Of a DNA stretch of 64,000 nucleotides, positions 11,011 to 61,764 are shown piece after piece (the first letter of the stretch is position 1; every line of letters begins with the position of its first letter). This stretch comes from Squalus acanthias (lineage: Eukaryota). A program made the translations under genes and the position numbers. Location: the NCBI GenBank assembly GCA_030390025.1, contig CM059431.1, positions 139,688,001 through 139,752,000 on the forward strand, written 5' to 3'. The notes beneath the pieces were generated by a model that saw only the letters and a program-made list of their open reading frames with translations, searched no databases and had not been told where the DNA came from.

Positions 11011-11041
<31 letters not shown>
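11011..11041. repeat. (CT)n microsatellite inside CR1
   Basis: Direct observation. Confidence 0.95.
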
Positions 11042-11043
<2 letters not shown>

Positions 11044-13001: not shown

Positions 13002-13399
13002 GTACGGTAAAATCAATTTCACATCTAAAATTACATATTTGACTAAAGTAGTGCACGGATTTGTTTTCATGAAAGCTAATTTATTTAAACAGGTTTCTTT
13101 CGATTTAATGACATGTAAGCCACAGAATGTTTATCCGAAGTTCCCAGTCAGCTGAAAGGTAGGTGATGGGCTGAAGATGTCAAACAGATTATTTCGGTTC
13201 TGATTATCAGAGGCTTTAACTTTGATCATTGGTTAAGAGATTTCTTGAATCTGGGAGTGAAAAGTTCAAGAGCTGGGCAAACAGAATTAAACTTCATTTT
13301 CACTTGTCACTGATTCTGAAATATATCTTTGAAATGTGTGGGATGAAGTTACCATCAACACCAGGTTTGGGATTATCTTTAAATATTAGTTGCAAACTG

Positions 13400-15680: not shown

Positions 15681-15889
15681 TGCAGATGTTGTCATTACTC
15701 CAGTGGTTTATCCAGCTGTTCATGTGACTGGCCTTTGCTGCCAGTGGAAGTCACTGACCGGGATAAAACATCAAACTCCCAGTGGTCAGTCTGTCTGATA
15801 CACCGATTAATCAGCAGAGAAAATTAATTTATTGCAGCTTCCCTGGATGACTCAAATGGATGATGTACCAGTGAGTGCAGTGTTTAGGC

Positions 15890-18975: not shown

Positions 18976-19050
18976 TATTGCAAGGAATATTCGGAACAAG
19001 GTGGATGAATTAGCAGCGCAAATAGAGGTAAACAAATATGATTTGATTGG

Positions 19051-20900
19051 AAATAACAACAGAAAACGCTGGAAAAACTCAGCAGGCCAGGCAGCATCCG
19101 CAGAGAGAGAAAGAGAGTTGACGTTTCAGGTCGATGACCTTTCATCAGAACTGGGAAGAGCTGGAAATCAAATAGATTTAAGGCCAGGGTAAAGTTGGGA
19201 AAAGGGGGAGGGGATAAAGGAACAAAGGAGGAGATGAAGAGACATTAAGGGACATTAAGAGATATGCAAGGCTAGAGGTGGTGTTAATGTGACAGATTAA
19301 GGCTGAATGAAGTGTGAAATCCACTGGCAGAATGAAGGACAGCTGCCAGCTTCTAGGAGGAAACAAAAAGGTGGGGGGGACAAATAAAAGGGTGGATAAA
19401 ATAAAATATAAATGTGATTGGAGCTGAGGTTATGATCTAAAATTGTTGAACTCGATATTGAGTCCAGAGGGCTGTAGCGTGCCTAAACGAAAGATGAGGT
19501 GCTGTTCCTCGAGCTTACGCTGAGCTTCCGTGGAACAGTGTAATAGGCCGAGGACGGTGAGGTCAGAGTGGGAGTGAAGCGGTGAATTAAAGTGACAGGC
19601 CACCGGGAGCTCGGGGTCCCCCTTACGGACTGAACGGAGGTGTTCCGCAAAGCGGTCACCCAATCTGCGTTTGGTCTCCCCAATGTAGAGGAGTCCACAT
19701 CGTGAGCAGCGAATACAGTATACTAAATTGCAGGAGGTACAAGTAAATCGCTGTTTCACCTGGAAGGGGTGTTTGGGGCCCTGGACAGTGGGAAGAGGGG
19801 AGGTATAAGGGCATGTGTTGCATCTCCTGCGCGTGCACGGGAAGGTGCCGGGCGAAGGGGAAGGGGTGCTGGGGGTGGTAGAGGAGTGGACTAGGGTGTC
19901 GCGGAGGGAGCGGTCCCTGCGGAATGCTGAAAGGGGAGGTGAGGGGAAGATGTGTTTGGTGGTGGGATCACGCTGGAGGTGGCGGAAATGGCGGAGGATG
20001 ATCCGTTGAATGTGGAGGCTGGTGGGGTGAAAGGTGAGGACAAGGGGAACCCTATCGTGGTTCCGGGAGGGAGGGGCAGGGGTGAGGGCAGATGTGCGGG
20101 AGATAGAACGGACACGGTCGAGGGCCGTGTCGACCACGGTAGAGGGGAATCCTCGGTTGAGGAAAAAGGAAGACATGTCGGAAGCACTGGTATGGAAGGT
20201 GGCATCATCAGAGCAGATGCGGCGGAGACGGAGAAACTGGGAGAATGGAATAGAGTCCTTACAGGAGGCGGGGTGGGAGGAAGTGTAGTCCAGGTAGCTG
20301 TGGGAGTCGGTGGGCTTGTAGTGAATGTTAGTCAATAACCTATCCCCAGAGATGGAGATGGAGAAGTCGAGGAAGGGAAGGGAAGAGTCGGAGATGGACC
20401 ATGTGAAGGTGAGGGAAGGGTGGAAATTGGAAGCATAGTGAATGAAATGTTCTAGTTCAGGGCGAGAGCAGGAGACGGCACCGATACAGTCATCAATGTA
20501 CCGGAAAAAGAGGTGAGGGAGGGGACCCGAGTAGGACTGGAACAAAGAGTGTTCCACATATCCCATGAAAAGGCAGGCATAGCTAGGACCCATGCGGGTA
20601 CCCATAGCAACACCTTTAATTTGGAGGAAATGGGTAGAGTCAAAGGAGAAGTTGTTCAATGTGAGAACAAGTTCAGCCAGGCGGAGGAGGGTGGTGGTGG
20701 ATGGGGACTGGTTGGGCCTCTGTTCAAGGAAGAAGCGGAGCGCCCTCAGGCCATCCTGGTGGGGAATGGAGGTGTAGAGGGATTGTACGTCCATAGTGAA
20801 GAGGAGACGGTTGGGGCCGGGAAACTGGAAACTGTTAAAATGGCGGAGGGCATCGGAAGAGTCGCGGATGTAGGTGGGAAGAGACTGGACAAGGGGAGAA
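19051..20900 (-). mobile_element. Young 5'-truncated Penelope-like element (Neptune-like linker), family 1, with open RT-GIY-YIG ORF 19430-20900
   Basis: MDVQSLYT, KGVAMG, FRYIDD, CTRRRCNTC, VYCIRCSRCGLLYIGET, GLN; no stops; 15-bp TSD atatgatttgattgg (19036-19050 / 20909-20923). Confidence 0.96.
19116..19152 (-). ncRNA. Minimal hammerhead ribozyme (PLE family 1)
   Basis: Identical to 8656-8692. Confidence 0.85.
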
Positions 20901-23900
20901 ATGATTTGATATGATTTGATTGGGATTACCGAAACATGGCTCCAGGGTGGCCAAGGCTGTGAGCTCAAAATCCAGGGGTACTCAATATTCAGGAAAGATA
21001 GGCAAAAAGGAAAGGGAGGCGGGGTAGCATTGCTGGTTAAAGAGGGGATTAACACAATTGAAAGGAAGGATATTAGCTCTGATGATGTGGAATCTGTATG
21101 GGTTGAACTGAAAAATAACAAGGGGCAGACAACGTTAGTAGGAGTGATATATAGACCTCCAAACAGTAATGCGGAGGTTGGGGATGGCATTAAAAGGGAA
21201 ATTAGAGATGCGTGCAATAAGGGCACAGCAGTCATCATGGGTGACATTAATCCACATATAGATTGGGCTAACCAAATTAGTAACAATACTAAGGAGGAGG
21301 AATTCCTGGAGTGTATACGGGATAGTTTCCTGGACCAATATGGCGAGGAACCAACCAGAGATCAGGCCATCTTAGACTGGGTATTATGCAATGAGAAAGG
21401 ATTAATTAGCAATCTTGTTGTGCGAGGCCCCTTGGGTCGGAGAGCTCATAATATGATAGAATTCTTCATTAGGATAGAGAGTGAAGTAGTTGACTCAGAG
21501 ACTAGGGTCCTGAATTTAAATAAAGGAAACTATGATGGTATGAGGCGCGAGTTAGGTAGGATGGATTGGGGAATGTCACTCAAATGGTTGACGGTGGATA
21601 GGCAATGGCAAACATTCAAAGACCGAATGGACGAACTACAGAATTTGTTCATCTCAGTTTAGCATAAGAATAAAACAAAAAGGGTGACTCAACCATGGCT
21701 AACAAGGGAAATTAGGGATAGCATCAGATCCAAGGAGAGGGCATATAAATTGGCCAGAAAAAGCAGTAACCCTGAGGATTGGGAGCAGTTCAAGATTCAA
21801 CAAAGGAGGACAAAGGGATTAATTAAGAAGGGGAAAATAGAATACGAGAGTAAGCCTTCAGGGAACATAAAAACTGACTGTAAAAGCATTTATAGATATG
21901 TGAAGAGAAAAAGATTAGTGAAATCAAGCATAGGTCCCTTGCAGTCAGAATCAGGGGAACTTATAATGGGGAACAAAGAAATGTCAGACCAATTAAATAC
22001 ATATTTTGGTTCTGTCTTCACAAAGGAGCACACAAATAACCTCCCGGAGCTGTTGGGGAACATAGGGTCCGATGAAAGGGAGGAACTGAAAGAAATCAGT
22101 ATTTGTAGGGAAATGGTGTTAGGGAAATTGAAGGGATTGAAGGCCGATAGATCCCCAGGGCCTGATAATCTACATCCTAGGGTACTTAAGGAAGTGGCTC
22201 TAGAAATAGTAGATGCATTGCTGATCATCTTTCAACATTCAATGGGATCTGGAACAGTATCCATTGATTGGAGGGTAGCTAATGTTACCCCACTATTCAA
22301 AAAGGGTGATAGAGAGAAAACGGTGAATTACAGACATCGGAAGTGGGGAAAATGCTAAAGTCCATTATAAAAGATGTAATAGCTGAGCACTTGGAAAACA
22401 GTGACAGGATCGGACAAAGTCAACATGGATTTACAAAAGGTAAATCATGCTTCACTAATCTACTGGAATTTTTGAGGATGTAACCAGTAAAATAGATAAG
22501 GGAGAACCAGTGGATGTGGTGCATTTGGACTTCCAAAAGGCTTTTGATAAGGTCCCGCATAAGAGATTAGCGCGTAAAGTTAAGGCACATGGGATTGGGG
22601 GCAAGGTATTGACTTGGATAGAGAACTGGTTGGCAGACAGAAAGCAAAGAGTTGGAATAAATGGGTCTTTTTCCGAGTGGCAGGCAGTGACTAGTGGGGT
22701 ACCGCAGGGATCGGGCCTTGGTCCCCAGCTATTCACAATATACATTAATGATCTAGACAAGGGAACTAGATGTAATATCTCCAAGTTTGCAGACGACACA
22801 AAACTGGGTGGGCGTGTGTGCTGCGAGGAGGATGCCGAGAAACTCCAGTATGATTTGGACAGGTTGGGTGATTGGGCAGAAGCGTGGCAGATGCAATATA
22901 ACGTGGATAAATGCGAGGTTATCCACTTTGGTGTCAAAAACAGAAAGGCAGATTATTATCTGAATGGCAATAGAGTGGGAGAAGGGGAAGTGCAGCGAGA
23001 CCAGGGTGTCCTTGTGCACCAGTCGCTGAAGGTAAGCAAGCAGGTGCAGCAGGCGGTTAAGAAGGCAAATGGTATGTCGGCCTTCATAGCGAGAGAGTTT
23101 GAGTACAGGAACAAGGATGTCTTGCTGCAGTTGTACAGGGCCTTGGTGAGACCACACCTTGAGTACTGTGTGCAGTTTTTGTCACCTTATCTGAGTAAGG
23201 ATGTTCTTGCCATGGAAGGAGTTCAGCGAAGATTCACAAGGCTGATACCTGGGATGTCAGGAATGACGTATGAAGAGAGATTGGGTCGATTGGGCTTATA
23301 CTCGCTGGAGTTTAGAAGAATGAGAGGGGATCTCATTAAAACTTATACAATTCTGACAGGACAGGACAAACTAGATGCAGGAAGGATGTTCCCGATGGTC
23401 GGGAGTCCAGAACCAGGTGTCACAGTCTAAGGATAAGGTGTAAGCCATTTAGGACAGGAATTAGGAGGATTTTCTTCACCCAGAGAGTGGTGAACCTGTG
23501 GAATTCTCTGCCTCAGAAGGCAGTAGAGGCCAATTCATTAAATATATTCAAGAAGGAGTTAGATATATTTCTTAAGGCTAAAGGGATCAAGGGATATGGG
23601 GAGAAAGCAGGGACTGGGTACTGAATTTGGATGATCAGCCATGATCGCATTGAATGGCGGAGCAGGCTAGAGGGGCCGAATGGCCTACTCCTGCTCCTAT
23701 CTTCTATGATTCTAGAATTAAACATTTACATTGTTCCCCTAAATTCCCCTTCATTCTATTTCTATTTATGCTTCTCGTGTTCCGCTGAATTCCCCTGTCC
23801 TCTAGTTTTAATTCTAAAGATTAGGAGCAAGTCTGTTCCATAGATCGACCGTCGCTCATTGAAATAACGGATCCAGAAATTAGTTTTGAATTTACCCCCA

Positions 23901-24669: not shown

Positions 24670-25816
24670 ATGCCTCATGAGGAGTTTGCCCTGATGTTTT
24701 GTGTGATTCTGGCCCATAGAATCGAAAACCCCAGGGAACAACAAAGAAGACTGAGGAACCATGACCGCCACCTAATCAGGAGGAACTACTACCCACCCAG
24801 AGAGGGTACAGGGAGAGGCTGTCTTTTCAGATGTTGTCGGAGGATTTGTGTGTGAGCAGGCTGCACTTTTGTAAATAGACATTTGACCGACTATGTTACA
24901 TGTTGAATGACGGCCTTCAAACACGCTCGAAGACCCTCACTGCCTTGTCAGTGTCCATGAAGGTAACCACAGCACTGAACTTCTTTGCATGCGGGTCAGT
25001 TCAGTCAGGCACCTGTGACATTTCAAACATCTCCCAGACTGCTCGAGGACCTGCTTTCACCAGGTCACAGATGCCATATTCCGCAGGGCTTCAGAGTTCA
25101 TAGACTTCGACTTGTCCACTCGGCAGCAAAAGGAGATAGCTCTTGCATTTTATAGGATTGCTGGCTTCCCCAAAGTGATTGGGGCCGTTGGTGTAACCCA
25201 TGTTGCATTGAAGGCAACAATTGATGCACCTGTGACATACATCAACAGGAAGGGGTTTCATTCTTTAAATGTAATAATCATCTGTGATGCGCAACTAAGG
25301 ATCCTAAACATGAATGCAGTTCACCGGGGAAGTGCTCATGACTCCTTTGTCCTCCGTCACTCGGACTTATATAGCACTCGCAGTGCATTGCCTCCAGTAT
25401 CAGCATGGATATTGGGCGACAAGGGCTACCCGATAAAACCATGGTTGATGACACCATACCACAGGACCAATAATGAGGCTCAGCAGAGATACAACCAGGC
25501 ACACGTGTCCACACGGCAAGTGGTGGAGAGGACAATCGGGGTTCTGAAATCACACTTCCGGTGCCTGGACAGGTCAGGGGGGACCTTGCAGTATTCGCCT
25601 CAGAAAGTGGCAAGGATTGTGGTGGCCTGTTGTGCTTTGCATAACTTTGCCCTGCGGGAAGGACTGACCCTTAACCCTGCAGACGAGCTCCCTGCTGAAA
25701 TGGAGGACATGGAGGATGCCAATATCTTTGTGGCCAGGCCTGATGGGGAGGAGCCAAGTGCTGCCGAAACCAAAGCTGCCAGGGAACTGCTAGTAGCCAA
25801 CACGTTTACGAGGTGA
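24670..25816 (+). mobile_element. PIF/Harbinger transposase (HARBI1-like) pseudogene
   Basis: AGFPKVIGAVGVTHV, YINRKGFHSLNV, GSAHDSFV, LGDKGYP..PWLMTP, RYNQAH..TRQVVERTIGVLK.HFRCLD, CCALHN; 5' part frameshifted; first catalytic Asp appears as Gly. Confidence 0.92.
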
Positions 25817-40768: not shown

Positions 40769-40856
40769 TCACACAAACACTCTCAGTCCGTGTCTGGATT
40801 CCCACAACGACTGCAGGTGCCTCTTTTCATTTGACCTGAATTGATTCTCCCCCAGC
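40769..40856 (-). pseudogene. NLR copy B terminal exon
   Basis: LGENQFRSNEKRHLQSLWESRHGLRVFV*; the acceptor reads caa/g instead of cag/g. Confidence 0.75.
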
Positions 40857-41022
40857 TTGAAACAAATTAAAGATTAAACAGGAAATAAACAGATTGCACA
40901 ACAGTGTAAATAACGGAGACTGGGGTTAATATTTCAATAATTACAACAAATATTACCCATACTAGTGACTGAATCCCATTTATATTTTATTTATTACTTT
41001 AAACATTAACACAAACACTCAC

Positions 41023-41190
41023 CGGATCCGCTCCAGACTCCTGCAGGTCAGTATGAGGCGGGAGAGAGCGGGGACAGATCGGTCTGTGAAGGAGTTTGAT
41101 CTCAGGTTCAGATCGGTTAGTGACCGGATTGTACTGAGAGCGGAGGCGAGATCCTCGGCATCAGAATCTGTGAGACCGACATCCCATAGC
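41023..41190 (-). pseudogene. NLR copy B 168-bp RI-type LRR exon
   Basis: LWDVGLTDSDAEDLASALSTIRSLTDLNLRSNSFTDRSVPALSRLILTCRSLERI, gtgag donor; acceptor reads cgg, not cag. Confidence 0.9.
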
Positions 41191-41327
41191 CCGGGGATCA
41201 GAGAGAAATAACAGGAATCAGAGTAAATCCCCAGTGTTTATTAATAACACTATTACTGATACTAATAATAATGTTCAGTGTCAGACATCCAGTTATTATA
41301 AACACAATCTCACAGTCTGATACTTAC

Positions 41328-41413
41328 TCCAGTTCCTGTATTTTACAGTCCGGGTTCCTCAGAGCCCAGACACTAGTTTCACTCCTGAATCTCCCAGTTT
41401 ACTGTAGCTCAGT
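41328..41413 (-). pseudogene. NLR copy B single-LRR exon, 86 bp (1-bp deletion)
   Basis: tttag acceptor, LSYSKLGDSGVKLVS/ALRNPDCKIQEL, gtaag donor. Confidence 0.88.
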
Positions 41414-41524
41414 CTAAACACAAACAAAGAGTGACAAACAAACTGAATCAAACCCCAGCTCTGATATAATTTGCTCTTTCGGATGTTCCAGCAATCATTG
41501 AAAGTACTTCAGGAAATAAATAAC

Positions 41525-42680
41525 CCGGTTTCCCACCGCGACATCCCACCTGGGCGGGTCGGGTGCTGCCGGCGTCGGTGGTGGGTCACGGCCCCACTCT
41601 GCAGAAGGACTTTCACCTGATTGTCTTGTTAATCCCCACCCAGCACGTTTCCCGGCCAATTAGAGGAAGCGGGTCTGGTGACGTCACTTGATGACACGTA
41701 GCAATCGCTCTCCTTAAAGGGGTCATGCGTAAATTTAGCTTGACATTTGTGCTGTCAGTGTTCTACAGCATTGAGGTGCTGCAAACATGGAGAACCTCTG
41801 TACAGAGGTGCACGGTTGCACCCAGGCTCCCCCTTGACTCCCTCCATGTGCTTATGATTCTCTTCCCTTCCAATGGGCGGAAGAGACCTCACCAGGAGAA
41901 TAACGGAGCCTGGTTGCACATTGCACAGGAAGACACAAGCAGGGATGCCGTCAGGAGGACCAGGCTGCAGTGGTACAAACCTTTCATGAAACGTTACTGC
42001 AAAGCCACACTCAAACTCATCCTGCTGTGCCACTCATCACATCCCCATCACTCTGCCTTCCCTACCCTACTCCTGCACATCCTTACTCACACCAACTTAC
42101 CTTGCACCTCCACCCATCCCTGTCTATCTACATTATCACTTCCCCATCTCACTAGCCACCACTCACACTCACCCTCATCCTAGTCCAATCATACCAACTA
42201 ACACCACACAAGGGAAGCCACTTGGGTTTTTTAGCCAATGTTCATGTGAAGTTTCTGTCAATGTGTTGTCAAACATTGAAATCTTTATTTTCAATACATT
42301 CCGTTCTTGGACAGATTTGTGTGCACCTTTGGAAGTGGCTTAGTGAGTTGCAGTGAATGGTGAGACATAACGGTACCCCCCGCAATGCTGATGAGAGTGA
42401 AAGGAATGGTTTGGGCATTGTAGGGATGCTTTGTGTTGTTGCTGTGGGCTGGTGCCAACCTGGCGCATCATGTGACAAGCCAGGGTGTACAGCTTCAAGT
42501 GAAGAAAATCGGGCCATGGGGAGGCCATTCCTGGCGTCCCGGGCAGCAATGTAGATGGAATAAAATGATCAAGTGGTGATTCCCTGTACTTTATACTCTG
42601 TGCATTATATTAATCTGTATAATATCTCGGGGTAAGTTATATTGCGAAACGCCGCCAAACGATGTAAAATCCGCCCCCCA
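41525..42680 (+). mobile_element. Harbinger-type element remnant with a Myb/SANT-like (NAIF1/MSANTD-type) ORF fragment, in an NLR intron
   Basis: VAPR..DSLHVL..ILFPSNGRKRP....AWLHIAQE.TSRDAVRRT.LQW.K.F matches the trihelix/Myb-SANT pattern. Confidence 0.65.
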
Positions 42681-43582
42681 GGATTTTTTGTAACAAGGAG
42701 GGTTTATTCTGTCCCGTTACAAGTTTTAAATGTCCCTGTGCTCCTAGTTTATAGGGGAGGGGAGTCTCTCACTTTATTCCCCATTAAACTGGCTCTACAT
42801 TTATTTCAGGTGTAACTAGCCCGACAGTTTTTGGGGAATTTTCGGAAGTTCCCTCCCCGAGCGGGGCCTCACACACAGCGGACGGATTATGGGGAATTCC
42901 CGGGTTCACTGCCCCCGGTTTACCCAGGAGCCGCCCGCTGTGTGCGGGGCCCCAGTGTGTCTGTACTCCGGGGCTAATACACCACAACACGTTAGATTCC
43001 AACCTTTTCACCGGCAGATTTAAGATCCTGAATAACAATCTTTACGCAATGTCCAGGACTGTGTATAATTGTAAACATTTACAGCTGAAAGAATTCCCGA
43101 TTCCCCAATATTCCCAATCCAGGAAACTTCCCCCTCGATAAGACACACCCTGCACGGTATTGGAGTAAATATCAAACTGTTAGTGATTTAAACTCGGGTT
43201 TCTCTCCTGTTTCTAGTTGAAATGGTGGATGTGGAAAATATTTTTAATTAATTTTATCTTTACTGCCGGATTATAATTTGCTACCTTCCGCTGTCCAGCC
43301 TTATTAAATATGATTTATTGTAATTAAATTATCAGACTCTGTGACCTGCATTTGCTGATTAGACATAGATTGTAAAATTCTACTTGTTCACAAGGATCTG
43401 TTTTAGATTCTCCAGTCCTCAGTGAATTACTAACCGATCCTCTTATTATTGGTCATATTTGTGTTGAATCTGCTTCTCCCTGGTTTAACTGAACTGTTTT
43501 TTTCCCCTTCATTACGGAACAACAACACAATCCGTGACTGTTCTACAATTCGCCCAACAGTTAGAGACAAATAAACAGTTAC

Positions 43583-45311
43583 CTCAACACCCGGCATTTG
43601 TGCAGTGCGGGTCCCAGCCGCTGGAGTCCTTCACACTGAATGTTGCAGTATTGCAGGTTGAGGTGTTTTACTGTATCACAGAGTCCAATGACATGAGACA
43701 GGACCGCACAGTCAATCGGAGTCAGTCGCAATCCACTAAATGTAAGTGTTTCCACAGATCCCACTGTTTTCTGAGCCAGTGCTGTATTCCGAGACTCAAG
43801 CAGGTAGTGGAATGTGTTCAGGAGGTTCCTTTTACCAGTTTCACTCTGTGTTTCCAATCTGTCCTTCAACCTTCTCCTTCACCCAGTCAATCACTCGGCA
43901 GGTGGTTTGATGAAGAAATGGACCCAGAAACTCCTCCAGGGGCCGAGCTGACTGTGGGGAGGAGAGACCAGCAACAAAACGGAGAAATATCTCAAATCGC
44001 CCATCTTCCTTGCTGTGGGCTTCATTGAAGATTTTCCGGATGTCCCCGGGATCTGGAGTCAGGAATTGTGCGAGTGCGGCTACAAACTCTTGGATGGTGA
44101 GGTGCGGGAATGTGTACACCACGCTCTGGGCAGAATCATCTCTCTCCAAAAGTTCCATCATGAACCCAGACAGGAACTGGGAAGGTTGCAGATTGTATTT
44201 GATCAAATCTCCATTTCTAAACACAATCTTCTTCTCGGAGACTCCTGTGAAGGCCATCTCACCAAGCTTCAGTAACACATCACGGGGGCTTTCAATCTCT
44301 CGGCCATGGTTTTTCAGAATGTTGTAAATATAGGAATATAGTTGGGTGATGGTCTTGGGAACTCGCTGCTGATTCCTGTCTCTTTGTGTAAAGAAGGGAC
44401 CCAGTGAGAGGCCGAGGATCCAGCAGTAGGAAGGGTTGTAGCACATGGTGTACAGGATCTCGTTCTCCTCCACGTGTTTGAAAACAGCTGCTGCCACCGT
44501 CTGATCTTAAAAAACTTGTTGAAATATTCCTTCTGCTCTTGAACAAACTCCAGGATTTCAGCCCAGACACTGATCTCAGCCTTTTCCAATAAATGTAATG
44601 CAGTGGGGCGGCTGGTCACGAGCACTGAACATCCTGGGAGCAGCTTGTGCTGTATTAAACTGTATACAATGTCAGACACTTCACACCAGCATTTGGGATC
44701 TGTGCACATGTGCTGAGGTTCTGTATTTCTCCGATTGTCAGCAAAATCGATGCTGTCCTTGAATTCATCCAAACCATCGAATATAAACAGCAATCTCTCT
44801 GGGTTCTTCCAGAGCTCTCCCAGAATATTCCCAAAGTAAGGATACAGATCCAGTATCAGATTCCTCAGATTTATTCTACAGTTAATAGCGTTCAAATCCC
44901 AGAATTTAAAGCTGAAAACAAATTGAAAGTGTGGGTATATTTTCCCCGTGGCCCAGTCATGAATAATCTTTTGTACCATTGCTCTTTTTCCAATCCCCGC
45001 AACTCCGCTCACTGCTCCTGAACTCCCAGATTTGGATTTTCTCCGGGAAAAACTGCTGTGGAACAACTGATCAGTTCGGATTTTTTCCAGTTCTCTCCGG
45101 AGATGTTTCTCTCACCACTCTTCATGGTCTCGGCCTCTTGCCAGCAGTTCATGTTCTACAAGTGTCCGATCTCGAACAGTAGAAATGACCGTTAGCTCAG
45201 CGTATCGATCAACCAGCTGGAAAACCTTAACCTTCTCCTTTATTAGGATAGTGTTCACGCTCAGTGTTTCAGTTTGTACCCGGAGTGTTTCCTTGTGTTT
45301 CTGTTGAATAT
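43583..45311 (-). pseudogene. NLR copy B NACHT exon (FISNA-like region, NACHT, winged helix/HD2, first LRR)
   Basis: gaag acceptor then DIQQKHK; Walker A GVAGIGK, Walker B LLFIFDGLDE, VLVTSRP, YTFPHLTIQEFVAA, FLRFVAGL; stop at 45112 plus frameshifts; gag|gtaac donor. Confidence 0.95.
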
Positions 45312-46134
45312 CTTCAATTAGAACAGACAGAAAGTGGAGCTCAACATTAGTTGCATTGACATAAAAACTTCTCAATACCACTTTAGTATTCAGTAAAATA
45401 TTGCAAGAACTAATTCAGTTTCAATAGAGGTGTGTGAAGAAATTAAAACTCATTTAATGGAAACCTTGCTTGAAAGTGAACAAAGGCCGAGAAAAGTTTC
45501 CAATCCTCACTTGATTCTAATATTCACTGAACATGGAGATTTCTATGAAGGTGATATTTTGCTCTGATGGTTAATACTATCCGGCCTGCCCTGTACTATA
45601 GACATCGCATTATAAATACACACAAGATCCTGGTTATACGACAGTAGAGGTTCTAGTGGATCAATCTTTGAATCCGTCGGAAAACGGGATTGGTTGCTCA
45701 CCTGAGAGGGACAATGTGCAGAAGATCCACTGTTACTTTTATCAGGCCTTGAGCATGTTTTCTGAGTTAGTGTGGGCACTGAGAGAGCGACAGACTGTGA
45801 ATGAACAGAAGTTCCACCGATAGTGTGTCAGTTCCTGGGCAGGTTATCTGGGGTAGTGTGGGCACTGGGAGAGGGACAGACTGAATGTACAGAAGTTCCA
45901 CCGTTAGTGTGTCAGGTCCTGGGCAGGCATTATCTGCACATCTAATCAGCTAATCACAGCAAGAATGTTATTGCAATGAGGAAAACACAGAAGAATAAGA
46001 TGATCACGTGTCAGGAATTAAGGCAGAGGAAAGGGTGCGGGCGCTGGATTTGTTTTGTTTTGTTTGGAAGAAGAGACTTCAGAATAAAACCGGACAGATC
46101 ATCCGGCATCGACCTCGGCTTCTGACACGACAAC

Positions 46135-46341
46135 GGACCTGGAAATATATCGCCGTTCCTTCATCGTCGCTGGGTCAAAATCCTGGAATTCGCAACCAAA
46201 CAGCACTATGGGAGTACCTTCACCACACGGACTGCTGCGGTTCAAGAAAGCAGCTCACCACCACCTTCTCAAAGGCAATTAGGGATGGGCAATAAATGTT
46301 GTCCTTGCAGCGACGCTCACATCCCAGGAATGAAAAAAAAA
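46135..46341 (+). mobile_element. LINE/SINE 3' tail fragment, same family as 4285-4500
   Basis: 'gttccttcatcgtcgctgggtcaaaatcctggaa...gggcaataaatg' followed by poly(A). Confidence 0.75.
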
Positions 46342-46431
46342 ATCCTGCCAAGTGTGTATGGGGTTTTCACAGTGTATCAGAATCCTGAGGTCGCACAACA
46401 CCAGGTTATAGTCCAACAGTTTTATTTGAAA

Positions 46432-46473
46432 TCACAAGCATTCGGAGCTATCGATCGCCCCTTCCTCAGGTGA
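46432..46473 (-). ncRNA. Hammerhead ribozyme, family 2, left-arm copy with GAAA to GAAU core change
   Basis: Minus strand UCAC-CUGAGGA-A-GGGGC-GAUCGAUA-GCUCC-GAAUG-CUU-GUGA. Confidence 0.7.
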
Positions 46474-48617
46474 AGTAGTAAAGAAATACAGACTCGACAA
46501 AGCATATATAGATAGAGAACAATGCATGTGTACCTTACAATTGCAGACAACTAAATTAAATCATCCTGACTATCTGCCGAGGTGTGATAAAGTTAATCAG
46601 GTCAGCCAGGAAGATACCACATCAAAGACATAGCAAGATACAACTGAGACAATGAGGTGGAGTCGCAGGGGGTCTAACGTGTCAAAAGCTGCCGTCTGTA
46701 TGTAAAACGATAAGCTGTAAAAAAAATTTTACTGGGAAAATTTTTACTTTTTTACTGGGAATCACATCTGTGAACAAGCCAACGACGACTCGAGTCGGGA
46801 TCACGTCATGTATCGTGACATAAACCCAAGATCCCGGTTGAGACCGTCTTCATGAGTGCGGAACTTGGCTATCAGTTTCTGCTCGATGATTTTGCGCTGT
46901 CGTGTGTTCCTAAGCTTGCCTTGGAGAACGCTTACCCGCAGATCCGAGGCTGAATGTCCTTGACTGCTGAAGTGTTCCCCGACTGGGAGGTAACAATCCT
47001 GCCTGGTGATTGTTGCGCGGTGCTCGTTCATACGTTGTCTCAGTGTCTGCATGGTCTCGCCGATGTACCATGCCGCGGTGCATTCTTTCCTGCAACGTAT
47101 GAGGTAGACAACGTTGGCCGAGTCACATGAGTATGTACCATGTACCTGGTGGGTAGTGTCCTCACGTGTGATGGTGGTATCTGTGTTGATGATCTGGCAT
47201 GTCTTGCAGAGTTTGCTGTGGCAGCGTTGTGTGGTGTCGTGGTCGCTGTTATCCTGAAAGCTGGGTAATTTGCTGCGAACGATGGTACTTCTGAGGTTAG
47301 GCGGCTGTTTGAAGGCAAGTAGTGGAGGCGTGGGGATGGCCTTAGCGAGGTGTTTGTCGTCATCGATGACATGTTGAAGGCTGCGAAGAACATGGCGTAG
47401 TTTCTCCGCTCCGGGGAAGTACTGGACGACGTAGGGTACCCTGTTGGTTGTGTCCCGTGTTTGCCTTCTGAGGAGGTCTATGCGATTTTTTGCTGTGGCC
47501 CGTCGGAACTGTCGATCGATGAGTCGAGCGTCATATCCCGTTCTTACGAGGGACGCTCGACTCATCGATCGACAGTTCCGACGGGCCACAGCAAAAAATC
47601 GCATAGACCTCCTCAGAAGGCAAACACGGGACACAACCAACAGGGTACCCTACGTCGTCCAGTACTTCCCCGGAGCGGAGAAACTACGCCATGTTCTTCG
47701 CAGCCTTCAACATGTCATCGATGACGACAAACACCTCGCTAAGGCCATCCCCACGCCTCCACTACTTGCCTTCAAACAGCCGCCTAACCTCAGAAGTACC
47801 ATCGTTCGCAGCAAATTACCCAGCTTTCAGGATAACAGCGGCCACGACACCACACAACCCTGCCACGGCAAACTCTGCAAGACATGCCAGATCATCAACA
47901 CAGATACCACCATCACACGTGAGGACACTACCCACCAGGTACATGGTACATACTCATGTGACTCGGCCAACGTTGTCTACCTCATACGTTGCAGGAAAGA
48001 ATGCACCGCGGCATGGTACATCGGCGAGACCATGCAGACACTGAGACAACGTATGAACGAGCACCGCGCAACAATCAAAAGGCAGGATTGTTACCTCCCA
48101 GTCGGGGAACACTTCAGCAGTCAAGGACATTCAGCCTCGGATCTGCGTGTAAGCGTTCTCCAAGGCAACCTTAGGAACACACGACAGCGCAAAATCATCG
48201 AGCAGAAACTGATAGCCAAGTTCCGCACTCATGAAGACGGTCTCAATCGGGATCTTGGGTTTATGTCACGATACATGACGTGATCCCGACTCGAGTCGTC
48301 GTTGGCTTGTTCACAGATGTGATTCCCAGTAAAAAAGTAAAAATTTTCCCAGTAAAAAAGTAAAAATGTTTTACAGCTTATCGTTTTACATACAGACGGC
48401 AGCTTTTGACACGTTAGACCCCCTGCGACTCCACCTCATTGTCTCAGTTGTATCTTGCTATGTCTTTGATGTGGTACCTTCCTGGCTGACCTGATTAACT
48501 TTATCACACCTCGGCAGATAGTCAGGATGATTTAATTTAGTTGTCTGCAATTGTAAGGTACACATGCATTGTTCTCTATCTATATATGCTTTGTCGAGTC
48601 TGTATTTCTTTACTACT

Positions 48618-48659
48618 TCACCTGAGGAAGGGGCGATCGATAGCTCCGAAAGCTTGTGA
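48618..48659 (+). ncRNA. Minimal hammerhead ribozyme, family 2
   Basis: UCAC-CUGAGGA-A-GGGGC-GAUCGAUA-GCUCC-GAAAG-CUU-GUGA. Confidence 0.8.
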
Positions 48660-50332
48660 TTTCAAATAAAACTGTTGGACTATAACCTGGTGTTGTGCGA
48701 CCGCTCAATTTTGTCCACCCCAGTCCAACACCGGCATCTCCGCATCATATCAGAATCCTGCCAGGTGTGTCTGGAGTTTCACAGTGTATCAGGATCCTGC
48801 CAGGTGAGTCTGGGGTTTTTCAGTGTATCAGGTATCTGCCAGGTGTGTATGGGGTTTCACAGTGTATCAGGATCCTGCCAGGTGTGTATGGGGTTTCCCA
48901 GTGTATCAGAATCCTGCCAGGTGTGTATGGGGTTTCACAGTATATCGGGATCCTGCCAGGTGTGTATGGGGTTTCACAGTGTATCAGGACCCTGCCAGGT
49001 GTGTATGGGGTTTCACAGTGTATCAGGATCCTGCCAGGTGTGTATGGTGTTTTTCAGTGTATCAGCTACCTGCCAGGTGTGTATCGGGTTTCACAGTGTA
49101 TCAGGATCCTGCCAGGTCTGTATGGGGTTTCACAGTGTATCAGGATCCTGCCAGGTGTGTATGGGGTTTCACAGTATATCGGGATCCTGCCAAGTGTGTA
49201 TGGGGTTTCCCAGTGTATCAGAATCCTGCCAGGTGTGTCTGGGGTTTCACAGTGTATCAGCATCCTGCCAGGTATGTATGGGGTTTCACAGTGTATCAGG
49301 GTCCTGCCAGGAGTGTTTGGGGTTTAACAGTGTGTCAGGATCCTGCCAGGTGTGTATGGTGTTTTTCAGTGTATCAGGTACCTGCCAGGTGTGTATGGTG
49401 TTTTTCAGTGTATCAGGTACCTGCCAGGTGTGTATGGGGTTTCACAGTGTATCAGGATCCTGCCAAGTGTGTATGGGGTTTCCCAGTGTATTAGCATCCT
49501 GCCAGGTATGTATGGGGTTTCACAGTGTATCAGGGTCCTGCCAGGAGTGTTTGGGGTTTAACAGTGTGTCAGGATCCTGCCAGGTGTGTATGGTGTTTTT
49601 CAGTGTATCAGGTACCTGCCAGGTGTGTATGGGGTTTCACAGTGTATCAGGATCCTGCCAGGTGTGTATTGGGTTTCACAGTGTATCAGAATCCTGCCAG
49701 GTGTGTATGGGGTTTCAGAGTGTATCAGGATCCTGCCAGGTGTGTATGGGGTTTCACAGTGTATCAGGATCCTGTCAGGTGTGTATGGGGTTTCACAGTG
49801 TATCAGGATCCTGCCAGGTGTGTATGGGGTTTCACAGTGTATCAGGATCCTGCCAGGTATGTATGGGGTTTCAGTGTATCAGGATCCTGCCAGGTATGTA
49901 TGGGGTTTCAGCACTGATAGCGATCTGCACCTGGATTAACTGGAGTAACAAAAAACTACAAATTTACAATAATTCAGAAATCTGAGCAAATATTAACTGC
50001 AATTTATGCAGAATATTTGAGAATTGATAAATCGAAATAAACTTTTATTCTATTTCCCCAGCCTTTGAAATTCTGATTCCCAGTTTTTGACAATCTCTGA
50101 ACAAACAGCTACAGTCAAACATTCGGATTCTCAGGAGTGAAATAAACGGTTTGAAATCTCCATGTCATTACATACCTTTCAGGTGCTTGGGTACTTCGGA
50201 TAAACCTCGTGCGATGTTCATGTAATCAAATGGATCAGAATCTGTTTAAATGAAGCAGCTTTCATGAAATCAGATCTGTGTAATATTATAATAAAATCTG
50301 AATTTGAATTCAGGTGAGTGATTTTACCGTAC

Positions 50333-50392
50333 CAAGTTCCTGTATTTCTTTCAGTATTTTGTCCAACTTTGGTACCCCATGGTGCATTTTCA
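50333..50392 (-). pseudogene. NLR copy B exon 3 remnant (5' two-thirds deleted)
   Basis: KMHHGVPKLDKILKEIQELG then gtacgg donor; homology to 12830-13001 stops abruptly. Confidence 0.85.
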
Positions 50393-50902
50393 TGGCGGAA
50401 GTTCAGCATCACCTTCCCAAAGTCAAATAGGGATGGACAATAGATGTTGGCCTTGCCAGCGACGCCCATGTCCCAGGAATGAATTAAAAAGAGACAGGAG
50501 TAGAGATTAGTGGGGTGAGCAACATCTAGATGAACATGCTAAGTTTTAAGCAGGAGATGAAGGTGAAGAGAAGGATGGGTCCAGCGAATGAATTCCAGAG
50601 CGTGGGGCCTTAGGCAACTAAATGCTCCGTCACCACTAGTAGGGTGAGGGCGTGCACAAGAGGCCAGAGTCAGATGAACAGAGAATTCTAGAGTTGTGGG
50701 ACTGTTGTAGGGCTGCAGGAGGTTACAGAGAAAGGGAGGGGCGAGGCCATTGCTCCAGATTCACAATATTTTCAGTTTTATCTATTTCTTTCCTATTTGG
50801 CCTGTTTCTCTTCAGTAACATTCTGTGATTCTAAGATCTGATATCCTATCAGTTCTGTGATGTTTAAATAATCCAATCTCCTTCTGTGTCCCTCCCACTT
50901 AC

Positions 50903-51069
50903 CCGATGTTCATGTCCACGGAAATGCCTCTCGTATGTTAACAACGAGCTGACTCCGTCCACCCCTCCTTCAATCGCCTGTTCCAGTCTGTCCCGGTAGA
51001 ACTTCGTGAACTGGAACAGCTGGTAATCGTCGCACTTTGTCAAGAGCTCAGTGCTTGTCGAGTTCGGAT
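50903..51069 (-). pseudogene. NLR copy B exon 2 (open, 167 bp)
   Basis: PNSTSTELLTKCDDYQLFQFTKFYRDRLEQAIEGGVDGVSSLLTYERHFRGHEHR, gtaagt donor. Confidence 0.88.
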
Positions 51070-52735
51070 CTGTGAACACAAATGGAGAAAACTAAACACA
51101 TTATCCACTTTCTATCCGGGCTACATTATTTCCTCCAACACCAAACAGCTGAAGCCTCCTGTGAACCACATTCTCTGACACCTGAAAACCCATATACACC
51201 GCAAACGTGACATTTCATCCAACTATATTGTCACGTCTCAACAAAGCTGTATCAAATTTGTCAAATACGACTCGTCTACAGATAATCTGTTCCAGCCTCC
51301 CCTCAGCATCCCCTGTTGATCCTCGCTCCCTATTTTAACAGAGACATTGTTTGGGCTCCTTCAGGCCAACTGTGTATTTTGATATCAAAACGAGGATTGA
51401 AAAATTATCTTCAGAGTCCCTCCTACCTCCTCTGACTTCCTTTAATAGGCTGGGGTGCATTATCTCTGGGCTCACTGACTTATCCACCTAGGCTATTGAA
51501 CCAAGATCCAAATCCATCTCTACAGTTATCTCTAAATATGGTCGCACATCCTGCTCTAGTAGACCAACATTTTCACTTCCACCATCATTTTTAGAAACTA
51601 AATAGTTTGCATCTCCCAAAACGTCATCCTCCAAAACTAGTTTCTCCAGTACCCCCTCTACCTCACCTCCACTGCTTGCTGGCCTGCAAAACCCACCAAG
51701 AATTGTGCTGTTTCCCTTCCTATTGCTGATGTGTGTGCAAATGGATTCTATCTTAACATAGCTCCCTGTAACATCATTATGTTCTAAACCTCTCTGCCTC
51801 TCTCCTCCTTTACGACACGCCTTAAAACCTACCTCTTTGACCAAGCTTTTTGTCACCTGCCCGAATATCGCCTTATGCGACTTTGTATCAAATTTGGTTT
51901 GAGAACGGTCCTGTGAAGCACCTTGGGAAGTTTTACTACGTTAAAGGCACTATATAAATGCAGGTTTATTGTTGTTCTAGCATGGTCATAGAACCCTTTA
52001 ATTAACCTCACTCCCCAGCTCTTTCCCCATTTTTTCCCTTAAGTATTTACCCAATTACTTTTTGAAAGTTATTATTGAATCTGCTTCCACCACTCTTTCA
52101 GGCAGTGCATTCCAGTTTACATGTTTCCTGATGTTGCCTCTGGTAATTGTGCTACTTACATAACACTCGATGCCAAATCCAATTTTTTGGAACATGGAAC
52201 TGTTTTTGTTTTTATCTTAAACCAAGTGACCAGCTCTTTTTTCTGCTAATTACGTTTCACTATTTCATAAATTTTTTAAGCACGCTCTCTCATCTCAGAA
52301 CCGGATATTTCTCACCCTCCATTCATATCCGTGATACACGTCCACTGCTCCATTCACCTTTTGTGTAAAACCATTGTTGTTGGTCGGTACAGATCATGGC
52401 CGTCCCTTCCCTTCTCCCTGAACTCAAACCTACTGCCCCAAGAACGTGAACCCTTCCCTCCTGCTCCAGCCCTGCAGCCGCACATTGACCTGCCTCATAA
52501 TTCCCTCCACAAGTGGCTCAGTGCAAAACAATCCGGAGATCACCACCTTGAGGCCTGGTTTTTTGGTCTGGAGCCGTAGTCTTAATATTCCTTCTATAAA
52601 CGTGTTTCAATCGGTGTTGCTGGTACCGACCATGGCTATTTTCTGCTCTCCTTTCCTTCCCATAGATGGTGCCACCTGTTCCTGGATGTTCTTCTCTGGC
52701 ACCAGGAAGGCATCTTACCATTCGGGACCTGCTCA

Positions 52736-53618
52736 TAGGAACATAAGAAATAGGAGCAGGAGTAGGCCATTCGGCCCTTCGAGCCTGCTCCGCCATTCAA
52801 TGAGATCATGGCTGATCTTCTACCTCAATTCCATTCACCGGCCCTATCGCCATATCCCTTGATGCCCTTACTAGTCAGAAATCTATCGACTTGTTTTGAA
52901 TATACCCAATGACTGAGCCTCCACAGCCCTCTGGGGTAGAGAATTCCAAAGATTTACCACCCTCCTTGTGAAGAAATTTCTTCTCAGATCTTGAATGGCC
53001 TACCCTTTATCTTGAGGCTGTGGCCCCTGGTTCTAGACTCCCCAGCCAAGGGAAACATACTCCCAGCATCCATCCTATCAAGCCCTGTAATAATTTTGTA
53101 TGCTTCAATGAGATCCACTCTCATTCTTCTGAATTCAAGACAATACAGGCCTAGTTTACTCAATCTCTTCTCATACAACAGTCCCGCAATCCCAGGAATC
53201 TATCTCGTGAACTTTCATTGCACTCTCTCTATGGCAAGTATATCCTTCCTTAGGTCAGGAGACCAAAATTGTACACAGTACTCCAGGTGTGGTCTCACCA
53301 AGGCCCTATATAATTGGAGTAAGACTTCTTTACTCCTGTACTCAAATCCTATTGTAATGAAGGCCAGCATACCATTTGCCTTCCTAATAGCTTGCTGCAC
53401 CTGCACATTCACTTTCAGTGACTCATGTACAAGGACACCCAGGACCCTTTGAGCATCTGCATTCCCCAATCTTTCACCATTGAGGAAATACACTGCCTTT
53501 CTGCTTTTTCTACCAAAGTGGATAACTTCACATTTATCCCCATTATTTTCCATCTGCCATGTTCTCACCCACTCACTAAGCCAGTCGAGTTCCCGTTAAG
53601 CCTCTTCACATCCTCTTC
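52736..53618 (-). mobile_element. 5'-truncated CR1 with 5-bp TSD (gctca)
   Basis: DKCEVIHFG...LVRPHLEYCVQFWSP; tail 'aggaacataagaa'; the empty site is visible in copy C at about 61055. Confidence 0.92.
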
Positions 53619-54010
53619 GCTCAGAGCTGCAGACAACTCTGTCCATTACACTGACTATAATTTCTCCCACCACTATCGTTCTGCTCTTCCTCTGCCCCAC
53701 CTGCCTCTCACCCCAGCCCCACTCGGGGTGGATCCCTGGAGTCACACTGTTGCTCAGGAAGACCCTCCTCTGAGTCACTGTCTCCATCCACCTGACAGTC
53801 CCCAATACCAGGGATCTATTGGACAGTTCCAGGTACTCGGGGGCTCCCTCCACCTGTGACTATGATGTCTCTCTAGATGGTCACTCACTTCCCTCTTTCT
53901 AATCAGCCCCTGTCCTGTTCCCTCTTCCTGTGGGAGCTGCAGGATCTTGCAGGAGATCTGGACCATTTGTCAGAACAGAAATTATATTTTAAAGTATTTT
54001 GTGAACCTAC

Positions 54011-54068
54011 CTGTGTCCATTCTTGTTGAAGATGTTGGATCTTCTCCCCTGTTTGGACCTTCAGCCAT
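54011..54068 (-). pseudogene. NLR copy B first coding exon (MAEGPNRGEDPTSSTRMDT)
   Basis: Paralogue of 3775-3838; donor cag|gtagg. Confidence 0.78.
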
Positions 54069-54503
54069 GCCGGTGACAGGAGTTCCCAGATTCTGATGCT
54101 CTGTAATAAATATATTAATAGGAGGGTTAGATAGAAATATTAAACTGAGAAGGAGAACGTTGCCTAGTTAAACATGATATCAAGTCCCTCCTCACCATCA
54201 GTACAACAGCTGTTAGCTCTGGGATCGAGCATTTCCCGAGTGTTACGATCAACTCTTCGCATCAGGTGTGACACAGACAGCTGCCCACTGAGTCCCGCTG
54301 ATCTCCACAACCCAACTACAGCGATCATCCGTCACTCGGACATTTTATTTTCTCTTCCACCGAATTTTACAGCATCATGCGCGTCATCCGGGGACTGGGG
54401 GTGGGGCAGAAGCGAGCATGCGCACTGCGGCTGGAGAGCGCATACGCTGCATAAATTAATAAATACTAACTGAACACGCCCCTTCTATTGGCTGCACACA
54501 TTA

Positions 54504-54723
54504 CGATAGCAAAATACTGCAGATGCTGGAAATCCGAAATAACAACAGAAAACGCTGGAAAAACTCAGCAGGCCAGGCAGCATCCGTGGAGAGAGAAAGA
54601 GAGTTGACGTTTCAGGTCGATGACCTTTCATCAGTTCTGATGAAAGGTCATCGACCTGAAACGTCAACTCTCTTTCTCTCTCCACGGATGCTGCCTGGCC
54701 TGCTGAGTTTTTCCAGCGTTTTC
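54504..54723. mobile_element. 220-bp palindromic PLE pLTR insertion (family 1) with 14-bp TSD
   Basis: Perfect 87-bp arms 54548-54634 and 54637-54723 with a 2-nt loop; TSD ggctgcacacatta (54490-54503 / 54724-54737). Confidence 0.96.
54633..54669 (+). ncRNA. Minimal hammerhead ribozyme (family 1) at the palindrome centre
   Basis: AGUU-CUGAUGA-A-AGGUC-AUC-GACCU-GAAAC-GUC-AACU. Confidence 0.85.
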
Positions 54724-54924
54724 GGCTGCACACATTAGATTGACATGGCTGCCGACCATTAGGACTCCGCAGCGACATAGAGCTCCGCCCACTGTGATTT
54801 GAACCGAGGCGGCCACCGCGCGTGGTGAGCATTGTTATGGGTGACGTCAGAGCCCCGCCCACGTCGATTGTGACTAAAAACAGAAAATGCTGCAAATACT
54901 CAGCAGGTCAGAGAGAATCACTGC

Positions 54925-54992
<68 letters not shown>

Positions 54993-55947: not shown

Positions 55948-56147
55948 NNNNNNNNNNNNNNNNNNNNNNNNNNNNNNNNNNNNNNNNNNNNNNNNNNNNN
56001 NNNNNNNNNNNNNNNNNNNNNNNNNNNNNNNNNNNNNNNNNNNNNNNNNNNNNNNNNNNNNNNNNNNNNNNNNNNNNNNNNNNNNNNNNNNNNNNNNNNN
56101 NNNNNNNNNNNNNNNNNNNNNNNNNNNNNNNNNNNNNNNNNNNNNNN
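55948..56147. other. Assembly gap (200 N)
   Basis: Run of N. Confidence 1.
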
Positions 56148-61448: not shown

Positions 61449-61512
61449 CTGTGTCTATGCTCAGGCTCCTGATCGTTAAAATATCTTCCTCCCAGTCTGG
61501 ACCTTCAGCCAT
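61449..61512 (-). pseudogene. NLR copy C first coding exon (MAEGPDWEEDILTIRSLSIDT); downstream exons missing
   Basis: Paralogous exon with acceptor, accATGG and cag|gtagg donor; intron homology ends at about 57800, just before exon 2. Confidence 0.75.
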
Positions 61513-61764
61513 GGTGTTGACAGGCGTTCCCAGATTCTGATGCTCTGTAATAAATATATTAATAGGAGGGTTGGATGGAAATATTAAAATGAGAAGGAGA
61601 ACATTGCCTTGTTAAACATAATATCAAGTCCCTCCTCCCCCATCAGTACAGCAGCTGTTAGCTCTGGGATCGAGCATTTCCCGAATCTTACGATCAACTC
61701 TCCACATCAGGTGCGACACAGACAGCTGCCCAGTGAAATCCAGTGAGTCCCGCTGATCTTGCGT

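What the first reader, a model, noticed from the sequence alone, without database searches (positions are those of the whole stretch)
46388..48747. 2.36-kb near-perfect palindromic Penelope-like insertion with a hammerhead at each end
Seen: two arms of about 1.15 kb joined at their truncated 5' ends with a 19-bp spacer. The spacer continues the left arm's reading frame (LVRTGY). Both GIY-YIG frames are open and differ by only a few substitutions. A single 13-bp TSD shows one insertion event into the first unit of a 39-bp minisatellite, inside an NLR intron. Only the right arm has a 45-nt tail. Known: inverted pLTR arrangements occur in Penelope. Inference: produced by fold-back or twin priming during reverse transcription. 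Any read-through transcript would form over 1 kb of dsRNA (siRNA, ADAR or MDA5 substrate), and the DNA could extrude a cruciform.
Basis: partly seen in the sequence, partly recalled or inferred. Interest (0 to 1): 0.72.

Follow-up and report, generated by a model that had tools for sequence, protein, structure and literature searches.

The report
Back-to-back Penelope retroelement insertion, shark
A jumping gene of the Penelope type landed in a dead shark immune gene as two mirror-image partial copies; this layout is already described for these elements, but the position of the small loop between the copies hints at how the mirror copy is made.

Summary
The palindrome is real: arms 46389-47532 and 47552-48702 (10 substituted bases, one 7-nt indel cluster), a 19-nt spacer that is natural element sequence of the left arm, a 45-nt tail on the right only, and a 13-bp duplication. 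It is one 5'-truncated insertion of a high-copy shark Penelope-like element (Neptune-type linker). An inverted truncated partner, junction palindrome, one-sided tail and opposite-strand hammerhead pairs are all published PLE features, and this scan noted such doubles before in this and other genomes. Corrections: the left hammerhead core is mutated (GAAA to GAAT); the host NLR is a pseudogene; neither arm has RT or a start. A second, unrelated PLE palindrome (54504-54723, 14-bp TSD, one-sided 44-nt tail) repeats the anatomy. In both (2 of 2) the loop belongs to the tail-less arm, which contradicts simple fold-back of the tail-primed cDNA. Best model (0.5): both target strands primed at the two RT start sites, the tail-less cDNA snapped back. 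Junction-spanning reads and a genome-wide count were not obtained; dsRNA, ADAR, MDA5 and cruciform claims are untested. New member of a known kind.

The parts
46375..46387 (.). Left copy of 13-bp target-site duplication, in the 39-bp minisatellite
   Evidence: same 13-mer at 48748-48760; found in 3 of 28 other array units
46389..47532 (-). Left (tail-less) arm, 1144 nt, sense on the minus strand: truncated ORF, 3' region and hammerhead-bearing end; one extra base at 46388
46432..46473 (-). Left minimal hammerhead homologue with core change at 46440 (position 15.1 A to U); probably inactive (inference)
   Evidence: about 99% of family depth in runs X1, X2, X16, X8 has the intact letter
46801..47550 (-). 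Left 5'-truncated ORF, 249 aa (end of thumb, CX4CXXC linker, GIY-YIG); no RT core, no own start
   Evidence: (GIY-YIG E 3.5e-4, 21.2 bits, below the 22.6 cut-off)
47533..47551 (-). 19-nt spacer = natural upstream element sequence of the left arm; weak intrinsic hairpin; 1 base (47552) is shared microhomology
   Evidence: X16 contig 16 matches through 47552; hairpin -2 kcal/mol, 48 of 200 shuffles as good
47552..48702 (+). Right arm, 1151 nt, sense on the plus strand
47552..48283 (+). Right 5'-truncated ORF, 243 aa, GIY-YIG
   Evidence: (E 2.2e-4, 21.9 bits)
48618..48659 (+). Right minimal type-I hammerhead motif: helix I 4 bp, CUGAGGA, extra A, helix II 5 bp with G10.1-C11.1, GAAA, palindromic 2-nt helix III centre, predicted cut after 48655
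   Evidence: features as described in PMC4209133; no Rfam hit; activity untested
48703..48747 (+). 45-nt tail, present on this side only
48748..48760 (.). Right copy of the 13-bp duplication
48748..49910 (.). 39-bp minisatellite, 29.9 copies; a further 47 nt of it lie at 46341-46387
40772..54068 (-). Host NLRC3/NLRP3-like (NACHT-LRR) pseudogene; the insertion is in the intron between the exon at 50236-50177 and the NACHT exon from about 45318
   Evidence: nonsense codon 45114-45112, frameshifts near 44510, 43850 and 41365, 5' half of the exon ending at 50331 missing
54504..54723 (.). Second head-to-head palindrome from a different PLE family (comparison case): 87-nt arms with 0 mismatches, 2-nt loop on the tail-less arm, 44-nt tail on one side, 14-bp TSD (54490-54503, 54724-54737)

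Best explanation
A single integration of a Penelope-like retrotransposon. The GIY-YIG endonuclease nicked both target strands 13 nt apart. Each 3' end primed reverse transcription: the right one at the outer start site (giving the tail), the left one at the inner start site 45 nt further in (no tail). The left cDNA stopped after about 1,163 nt in a weak hairpin, folded back with a 1-base anchor, and copied itself; this sense strand then paired with the tail-bearing cDNA from the right, and gap filling closed the site. The arms began identical and have since decayed independently. The product is a dead element, not a functional cassette. Shown: anatomy, single-source arms, loop polarity. From literature: two RT start sites bounding the tail and extension of both strands in a related PLE in vitro. 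Inferred: the snap-back step and the order of events.
For: TSD plus one-sided tail. Spacer is natural sequence continuous with the tail-less arm; same polarity, 14-bp TSD and 44-nt one-sided tail in the second palindrome, whose apex sits on a natural 3-bp stem with 2-nt loop. 3' ends of the second family fall in two groups about 32-44 nt apart: 2 at the full tail, 4 further in, 1 diverged copy unresolved, of 7 ends. PAc cleaves and extends both strands, is predicted to be a dimer and starts RT at two sites that bound the tail (PMC11167929). Both arms share letters that are minor in the family (for example 47491: about 0.05% of depth in X1, 2.4% in X2), so one source. Private changes lie on both arms: 5 on the left by family letters, at least 2 events on the right by related proteins. 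Small-hairpin self-priming with 2-bp homology makes inverted duplications at L1 ends.
Against: Polarity rests on n=2, which random polarity gives 1 time in 4. The apex hairpin is not better than shuffles and the anchor is 1 base (chance 1 in 4). PAc is a Poseidon element, this family has a Neptune-type linker. No junction-spanning contig was shown. The model cannot be told from rivals 1 and 2 on these two loci. Arkhipova et al. read such junctions as self-priming on an antisense template.
Confidence: 0.5

Rival explanations
1. Double priming without fold-back: both cDNAs ran along the same RNA (or sister RNAs of one master copy) to nearly the same 5' end and were joined 3' end to 3' end by microhomology, with 19 nt (2 nt in the second case) lost from one.
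For: Both-strand extension in vitro; joining of two cDNA ends by microcomplementarity is the L1 twin-priming finish; explains TSD, tail asymmetry and shared rare letters equally well.
Against: Needs two RTs to stop within 19 and 2 nt of each other; predicts random loop polarity, while 2 of 2 are on the tail-less arm, which is weak.
Confidence: 0.25
2. Hairpin made before integration: an antisense template self-primed, giving a hairpin whose new sense strand carries the tail; endonuclease resolution removed the tail from the other end (published proposal).
For: PMC3846280 Discussion proposes self-priming on an antisense template for head-to-head junction palindromes; PMC8557442 ascribes the tail to endonuclease resolution. 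Predicts the observed loop polarity.
Against: The later in vitro work maps the tail to two RT start sites on sense RNA; no antisense transcript was shown here.
Confidence: 0.17
3. Simple fold-back of the cDNA primed at the tailed (right) end, or a later replication-based inverted duplication of a normal copy.
For: Gives identical arms from one source and loss of the tail on the second arm.
Against: Predicts the loop continuous with the tailed arm; it is continuous with the tail-less arm in 2 of 2 cases. The right arm cannot have been the template for spacer sequence it lacks.
Confidence: 0.04
4. Assembly or fold-back read artefact, or two independent insertions.
For: One search showed no contig bridging the left junction or apex in its truncated tables; at 45992 all laid contigs of X1, X2 and X8 differ from the window, so this flank haplotype was not seen in those runs.
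Against: Flanks are not mirrored; NLR exons stay collinear across the insert; tail on one side; private changes on both arms; no second TSD at the apex; same anatomy at a second locus and in print.
Confidence: 0.04

Closest known systems
Endonuclease-positive Penelope-like insertions with an adjacent inverted 5'-truncated copy and one-sided tail (Arkhipova et al. 2013, PMC3846280; Craig et al. 2021, PMC8557442)
   Same: [quoted passage not shown]
   Different: Here both copies are truncated at almost the same point inside the ORF, so the whole insert is a 2.3-kb palindrome; tail 45 nt rather than 30-40; TSD 13 bp; elasmobranch host. The passages I read do not state on which arm the loop lies.
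[quoted passage not shown]
   Same: Short helix I, extra nucleotide between 9 and 10.1, G10.1-C11.1, palindromic 15.2-16.2; that paper reports dual min-HHRs 100-700 bp apart on opposite strands in Schistosoma.
   Different: Motifs are 2.15 kb apart; the left one has a core change; in a read-through RNA both are paired into the long duplex.
PAc, Poseidon element of Anolis carolinensis (Frangieh et al. 2024, PMC11167929)
   Same: Two element ends a tail-length apart; hammerhead just upstream; AT-containing target next to the tail.
   Different: Poseidon clade versus a Neptune-type linker here; that paper leaves the steps after first-strand synthesis unvalidated, and the main text I read does not explain inverted copies.
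L1 twin priming and L1-associated inverted duplications (10.1101/2024.08.27.596794; 10.1101/2024.12.14.628481)
   Same: Both target nicks used as primers, one TSD, junction by 1-2 bp microhomology or a small hairpin.
   Different: L1 inverts an upstream segment and keeps one poly(A) end; here both arms begin at the element's 3' end and overlap almost entirely.

Membership tests
EN+ Penelope-like elements | C-terminal GIY-YIG endonuclease | tested here: met
   Pfam GIY-YIG E 2.2e-4 and 3.5e-4, just under the curated cut-off; at the C-terminus of RT-bearing relatives
EN+ Penelope-like elements | [quoted passage not shown] | tested here: met
   C153 and C157 invariant in 9 of 9 aligned proteins; downstream histidines present in both arms
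EN+ Penelope-like elements | Telomerase-like RT upstream in the same ORF | tested here: inconclusive
   Absent from this truncated copy; P0001 (88-89% identical) carries RVT_1 with a DKG motif. No RT tree was built.
EN+ Penelope-like elements | Tail at one end, inverted 5'-truncated partner, TSD | tested here: met
   TSD lies in a tandem array, so a deletion mimic is not fully excluded
Neptune (or Nematis) clade | CX2-5CxxC zinc-finger-like linker between RT and EN | tested here: met
   C110-X4-C115-XX-C118 invariant in 9 of 9; definition from PMC8557442
Neptune (or Nematis) clade | Placement by RT phylogeny with named clade members | not tested
   No named reference elements were returned by the searches, so the clade is 'Neptune-type by linker' only
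min-HHR of metazoan PLEs | Intact core CUGANGA / GAAA / UH with helices I and II (right motif) | tested here: met
   description; no Rfam model matched
min-HHR of metazoan PLEs | Intact core (left motif) | tested here: not met
   GAAT for GAAA at 46440; derived relative to the family
min-HHR of metazoan PLEs | Self-cleavage | not testable with these tools
   Published min-HHRs are inactive as monomers or need protein
L1-type twin-priming inversion | Inverted part comes from upstream of the forward part, with deletion or limited duplication at the junction | tested here: not met
   Both arms cover the same 1.14 kb up to the 3' end; L1 pattern
Foldback / MITE-type DNA transposon | Terminal inverted repeats of a DNA transposon rather than retroelement sequence | tested here: not met
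   The arms are PLE ORF and 3' end throughout; the family's natural sequence continues upstream of the apex into RT

The most novel reading that the evidence does not exclude
Shark PLE palindromes obey a fixed rule: the loop always belongs to the tail-less arm and apices sit on small natural hairpins. That would make the many such inserts a genomic read-out of the unresolved PLE steps after first-strand synthesis (two primed strands, snap-back of the inner-start cDNA as the route to second-strand synthesis), and show that shark genomes keep kilobase near-perfect palindromes with a 19-nt loop for millions of generations.
Probability: 0.3. Interest if true: 0.55.

Novelty: new member of a known kind. 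Interest (0 to 1): 0.3.

Why it matters
As a single locus it matters little: a dead retroelement in a dead gene. Its value is as a clean specimen. How Penelope-like elements finish integration is still open (PMC11167929 says the later steps are unvalidated), and loop polarity, apex position and tail side are countable in any long-read shark assembly and separate the rival models. If the arm divergence (0.45% per arm) is ordinary decay, a 1.1-kb near-perfect palindrome has lasted a long time, which bears on palindrome stability in slow-mutating genomes.

Tried and rejected
No whole genome is held, so no genome-wide count. Pattern scans of metagenome and viral contigs found 0 matches; a protein scan of metagenome contigs gave 163 candidates, 0 confirmed. 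Rfam: 0 hits at gathering in the whole window, 2 irrelevant weak hits in 46300-48800. PDB sequence search with P0001: 0. Contigs of 4 of the 24 listed runs were laid on 45950-47640 only (left flank, left arm, apex, 89 nt of the right arm); tables were cut (40 of 118 variant rows, 15 of 73 joints shown), no bridging contig appeared and no clean empty allele could be assigned because the minisatellite and NLR flank are themselves multi-copy; the right junction was not examined. Run X8 (RNA by guess) holds the family, which says nothing about this locus. One opposite-strand joint (46984/47105, one contig in X1) may be another inverted copy; not followed. Idea that the left hammerhead was selected against because it is sense to the NLR transcript: rejected as unsupported (post-hoc chance about 0.06-0.11, motif would be paired in the duplex anyway, gene is broken). 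Idea that the arms lack CpG decay: rejected (1 of 10 changes, expected share 0.17, P 0.47); transition deficit also not significant (P 0.12). Spacer hairpin as the cause of the stop: not better than shuffles. Look-ups of earlier findings by sequence returned nothing.

Full report
Observation. The inverted repeat is in the sequence as described. The left arm is 46389-47532 and the right 47552-48702, joined at their 5'-truncated ends across 19 nt. A global alignment gives 10 substituted bases at 9 places plus one cluster (7-nt gap and 3 substitutions) in a 23-bp tandem duplication; the 289 bp next to the apex are identical. The right arm alone continues for 45 nt (48703-48747). The same 13-mer flanks the insert (46375-46387, 48748-48760), with one extra base at 46388. 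A scan of the whole window for exact 14-nt inverted seeds at most 100 nt apart found 2 sites, this one and 54548-54723.

What the element is. Each arm holds the last 243-249 codons of an ORF with a GIY-YIG domain (scores just under the Pfam cut-off). Among 21 longer homologues the best are shark proteins, led by P0001 at 89% identity, which carries RVT_1 upstream. [quoted passage not shown] No RT tree was built, so the clade is by linker only. The family is abundant: tens of thousands of contigs per DNA run were laid on the stretch and summed depth over the arm is about a thousandfold that of the flank, which is not a copy number. Neither arm has an RT core or its own start, so the open frames are not a functional gene.

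Spacer and apex. The spacer is natural element sequence: relatives read DALVRTGYDARL and a contig of run X16 matches through 47552 with one other letter. So the left, tail-less arm is 19 nt longer at its 5' end, and 47552 is one base of microhomology. The spacer can fold into a small hairpin, but 48 of 200 shuffles fold as well.

Hammerheads. Rfam finds none. My pattern scan found the motif at 48622 (+) and 46469 (-). The right one has the published min-HHR marks: 4-bp helix I, an extra base between 9 and 10.1, G10.1-C11.1 and a palindromic 15.2-16.2. The left one has U at 15.1; about 99% of family depth in all 4 laid runs has the intact letter, so the change is derived and the motif is probably dead (inference from the conserved core). 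Published min-HHRs show no monomer activity or need protein.

One source, one event. Both arms share letters that are minor in the family (47491: about 81 of 151,359 depth in X1, 5,571 of 236,857 in X2). Of the 9 substitution places, 5 are derived on the left by family letters (46440, 46614, 46915, 47217, 47225), 2 on the right by related proteins (47841, 48078-9), and 2 could not be polarised because the table was cut. This fits identical arms that decayed separately. Divergence is 0.45% per arm; at the epaulette shark rate of 7e-10 per generation (PMC10587355) that is about 6 million generations, a rough figure that fails if palindromes mutate faster or convert each other. The TSD needs care: in a tandem array a deletion mimics a duplication. 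In favour of a true TSD, the exact 13-mer starts only 3 of the 28 other units, and neighbouring PLE inserts have 14- and 15-bp duplications.

Host context. Translated searches with 120 shark NLR proteins place exons at 54068-54006, 51073-50903, 50399-50331, 50236-50177, 45318-43582 and LRR exons near 41433-40772, all on the minus strand and in order. But the gene has a nonsense codon (45114-45112), three frameshifts (near 44510, 43850, 41365) and has lost the first half of one exon. A minus-strand transcript would fold into 1136 bp with helices of 289, 282 and 210 bp, pairing the hammerhead bases with their antisense. Cruciform extrusion was not tested.

A second palindrome. At 54504-54723 an unrelated hammerhead-bearing PLE family (27-35% identical to the focal family's relatives) forms 87-nt perfect arms with a 2-nt loop, a 44-nt tail on one side and a 14-bp TSD. 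Its loop letters match the natural sequence of the tail-less arm, where the element has a 3-bp stem with a 2-nt loop. Of 7 PLE inserts I found in the window (the focal one and 6 of the second family), 2 are palindromic. The second family's 7 ends fall at the full tail (2), 32-44 nt further in (4), or are too diverged to place (1).

Mechanism. If the cDNA primed at the tailed end folded back, the loop would be continuous with the tailed arm. It is continuous with the tail-less arm in 2 of 2 cases, so that model is contradicted. Classical L1 twin priming inverts an upstream segment, which also does not fit. PAc of Anolis nicks and extends both strands and starts RT at two sites that bound the tail. 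This suggests that both target ends were primed, one at each start site, and that the tail-less cDNA snapped back and copied itself to meet the tail-bearing cDNA (0.5). End-joining of two cDNAs that stopped at nearly the same place (0.25) and a hairpin made by antisense self-priming before integration, as Arkhipova et al. proposed (0.17), explain the same two loci. Small-hairpin self-priming with 2-bp homology is reported at L1 ends. At the left junction, four bases match the element just beyond the arm end with a 2-nt skip; this is compatible with priming there but too short to count.

What was not obtained. At 45992 all laid contigs of X1, X2 and X8 differ from the window, so those runs did not show this flank haplotype. 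The locus is therefore not independently confirmed by reads.

Comparison with what is known. PMC3846280 reports abundant inverted-repeat PLE structures with palindromes at the junction, a one-sided tail and 8-10-bp TSDs; PMC8557442 calls the adjacent inverted 5'-truncated copy and one-sided tail typical; PMC4209133 reports dual min-HHRs on opposite strands 100-700 bp apart. Seven searches of the held library returned no paper whose title or abstract opening describes kilobase PLE palindromes in sharks or loop polarity; the library lacks most subscription papers, and the 2005-2006 PLE reviews were not read. What I saw: PMC11167929 and PMC4209133, parts 1-2 of 4 (main text and start of methods); PMC3846280, passages and the Discussion; PMC8557442, passages and the Introduction; 10.1101/2024.08.27.596794, 10.1101/2024.12.14.628481, 10.64898/2026.07.22.740005 and PMC10587355, passages only. 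No supplements or figures were seen; figure 2 of the first two structure papers may show loop polarity. Earlier notes of this scan describe back-to-back PLE doubles in this genome and others; they are unchecked leads, not support.

Verdict. Interest 0.3. The bolder reading, a fixed loop-polarity rule that reads out the unresolved end of the PLE cycle, has probability about 0.3 and would deserve about 0.55.

Noticed in passing
window 54490-54737: Second head-to-head hammerhead palindrome (87-nt arms, 14-bp TSD, one-sided 44-nt tail) about 440 nt upstream of the NLR pseudogene's first coding exon, among CCAAT-, GC- and CRE-like boxes (motif names recalled). Its apex lies 2 nt before the hammerhead core, not at the cut site.
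   Followed up: yes
window 8593-8905, 9981-10726, 13447-15685, 19050-20908, 54866-54940: Five more inserts of the second PLE family; 19050-20908 has a 15-bp TSD and a long open frame and appears to interrupt a LINE ORF (20910-22355); its endonuclease also has a CX4CXXC linker.
   Followed up: partly
window 1319-13157 (+) and 61450-61551 (-): Further NLR 5' exons (a second paralogue on the plus strand, fragments elsewhere); no second NACHT exon in the window.
   Followed up: no
window 50389-50490 and 46136-46341: A short repeat fragment abuts the remaining half of the NLR exon ending at 50331, where its first half is missing; a related fragment sits directly left of the minisatellite.
   Followed up: partly
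window 46341-46387 and 48748-49910: The 39-bp minisatellite is itself a high-copy family in runs X1 and X2, and its plus strand gives a 441-codon open frame that is probably only a by-product of the 39-nt period.
   Followed up: no
window 48323-48367 and 46723-46761: A 23-bp tandem duplication in the 3' region, present in both arms but altered in the left; the place of the only indel between arms.
   Followed up: partly
window 25019-25813 (-): A 265-codon frame that looks like a Harbinger-type DDE transposase fragment (recalled likeness, not tested).
   Followed up: no
proteins P0007, P0010, P0014, P0015, P0017, P0020, P0021: Pieces of this PLE family are built into annotated isoforms of several shark genes (septin 5a, XRCC5, IFIT5-like, USP8 and others): exonisation or annotation error.
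   Followed up: no
window 55948-56147: A 200-N assembly gap between an (AG)n tract and a 27-bp array, about 7 kb from the finding.
   Followed up: no
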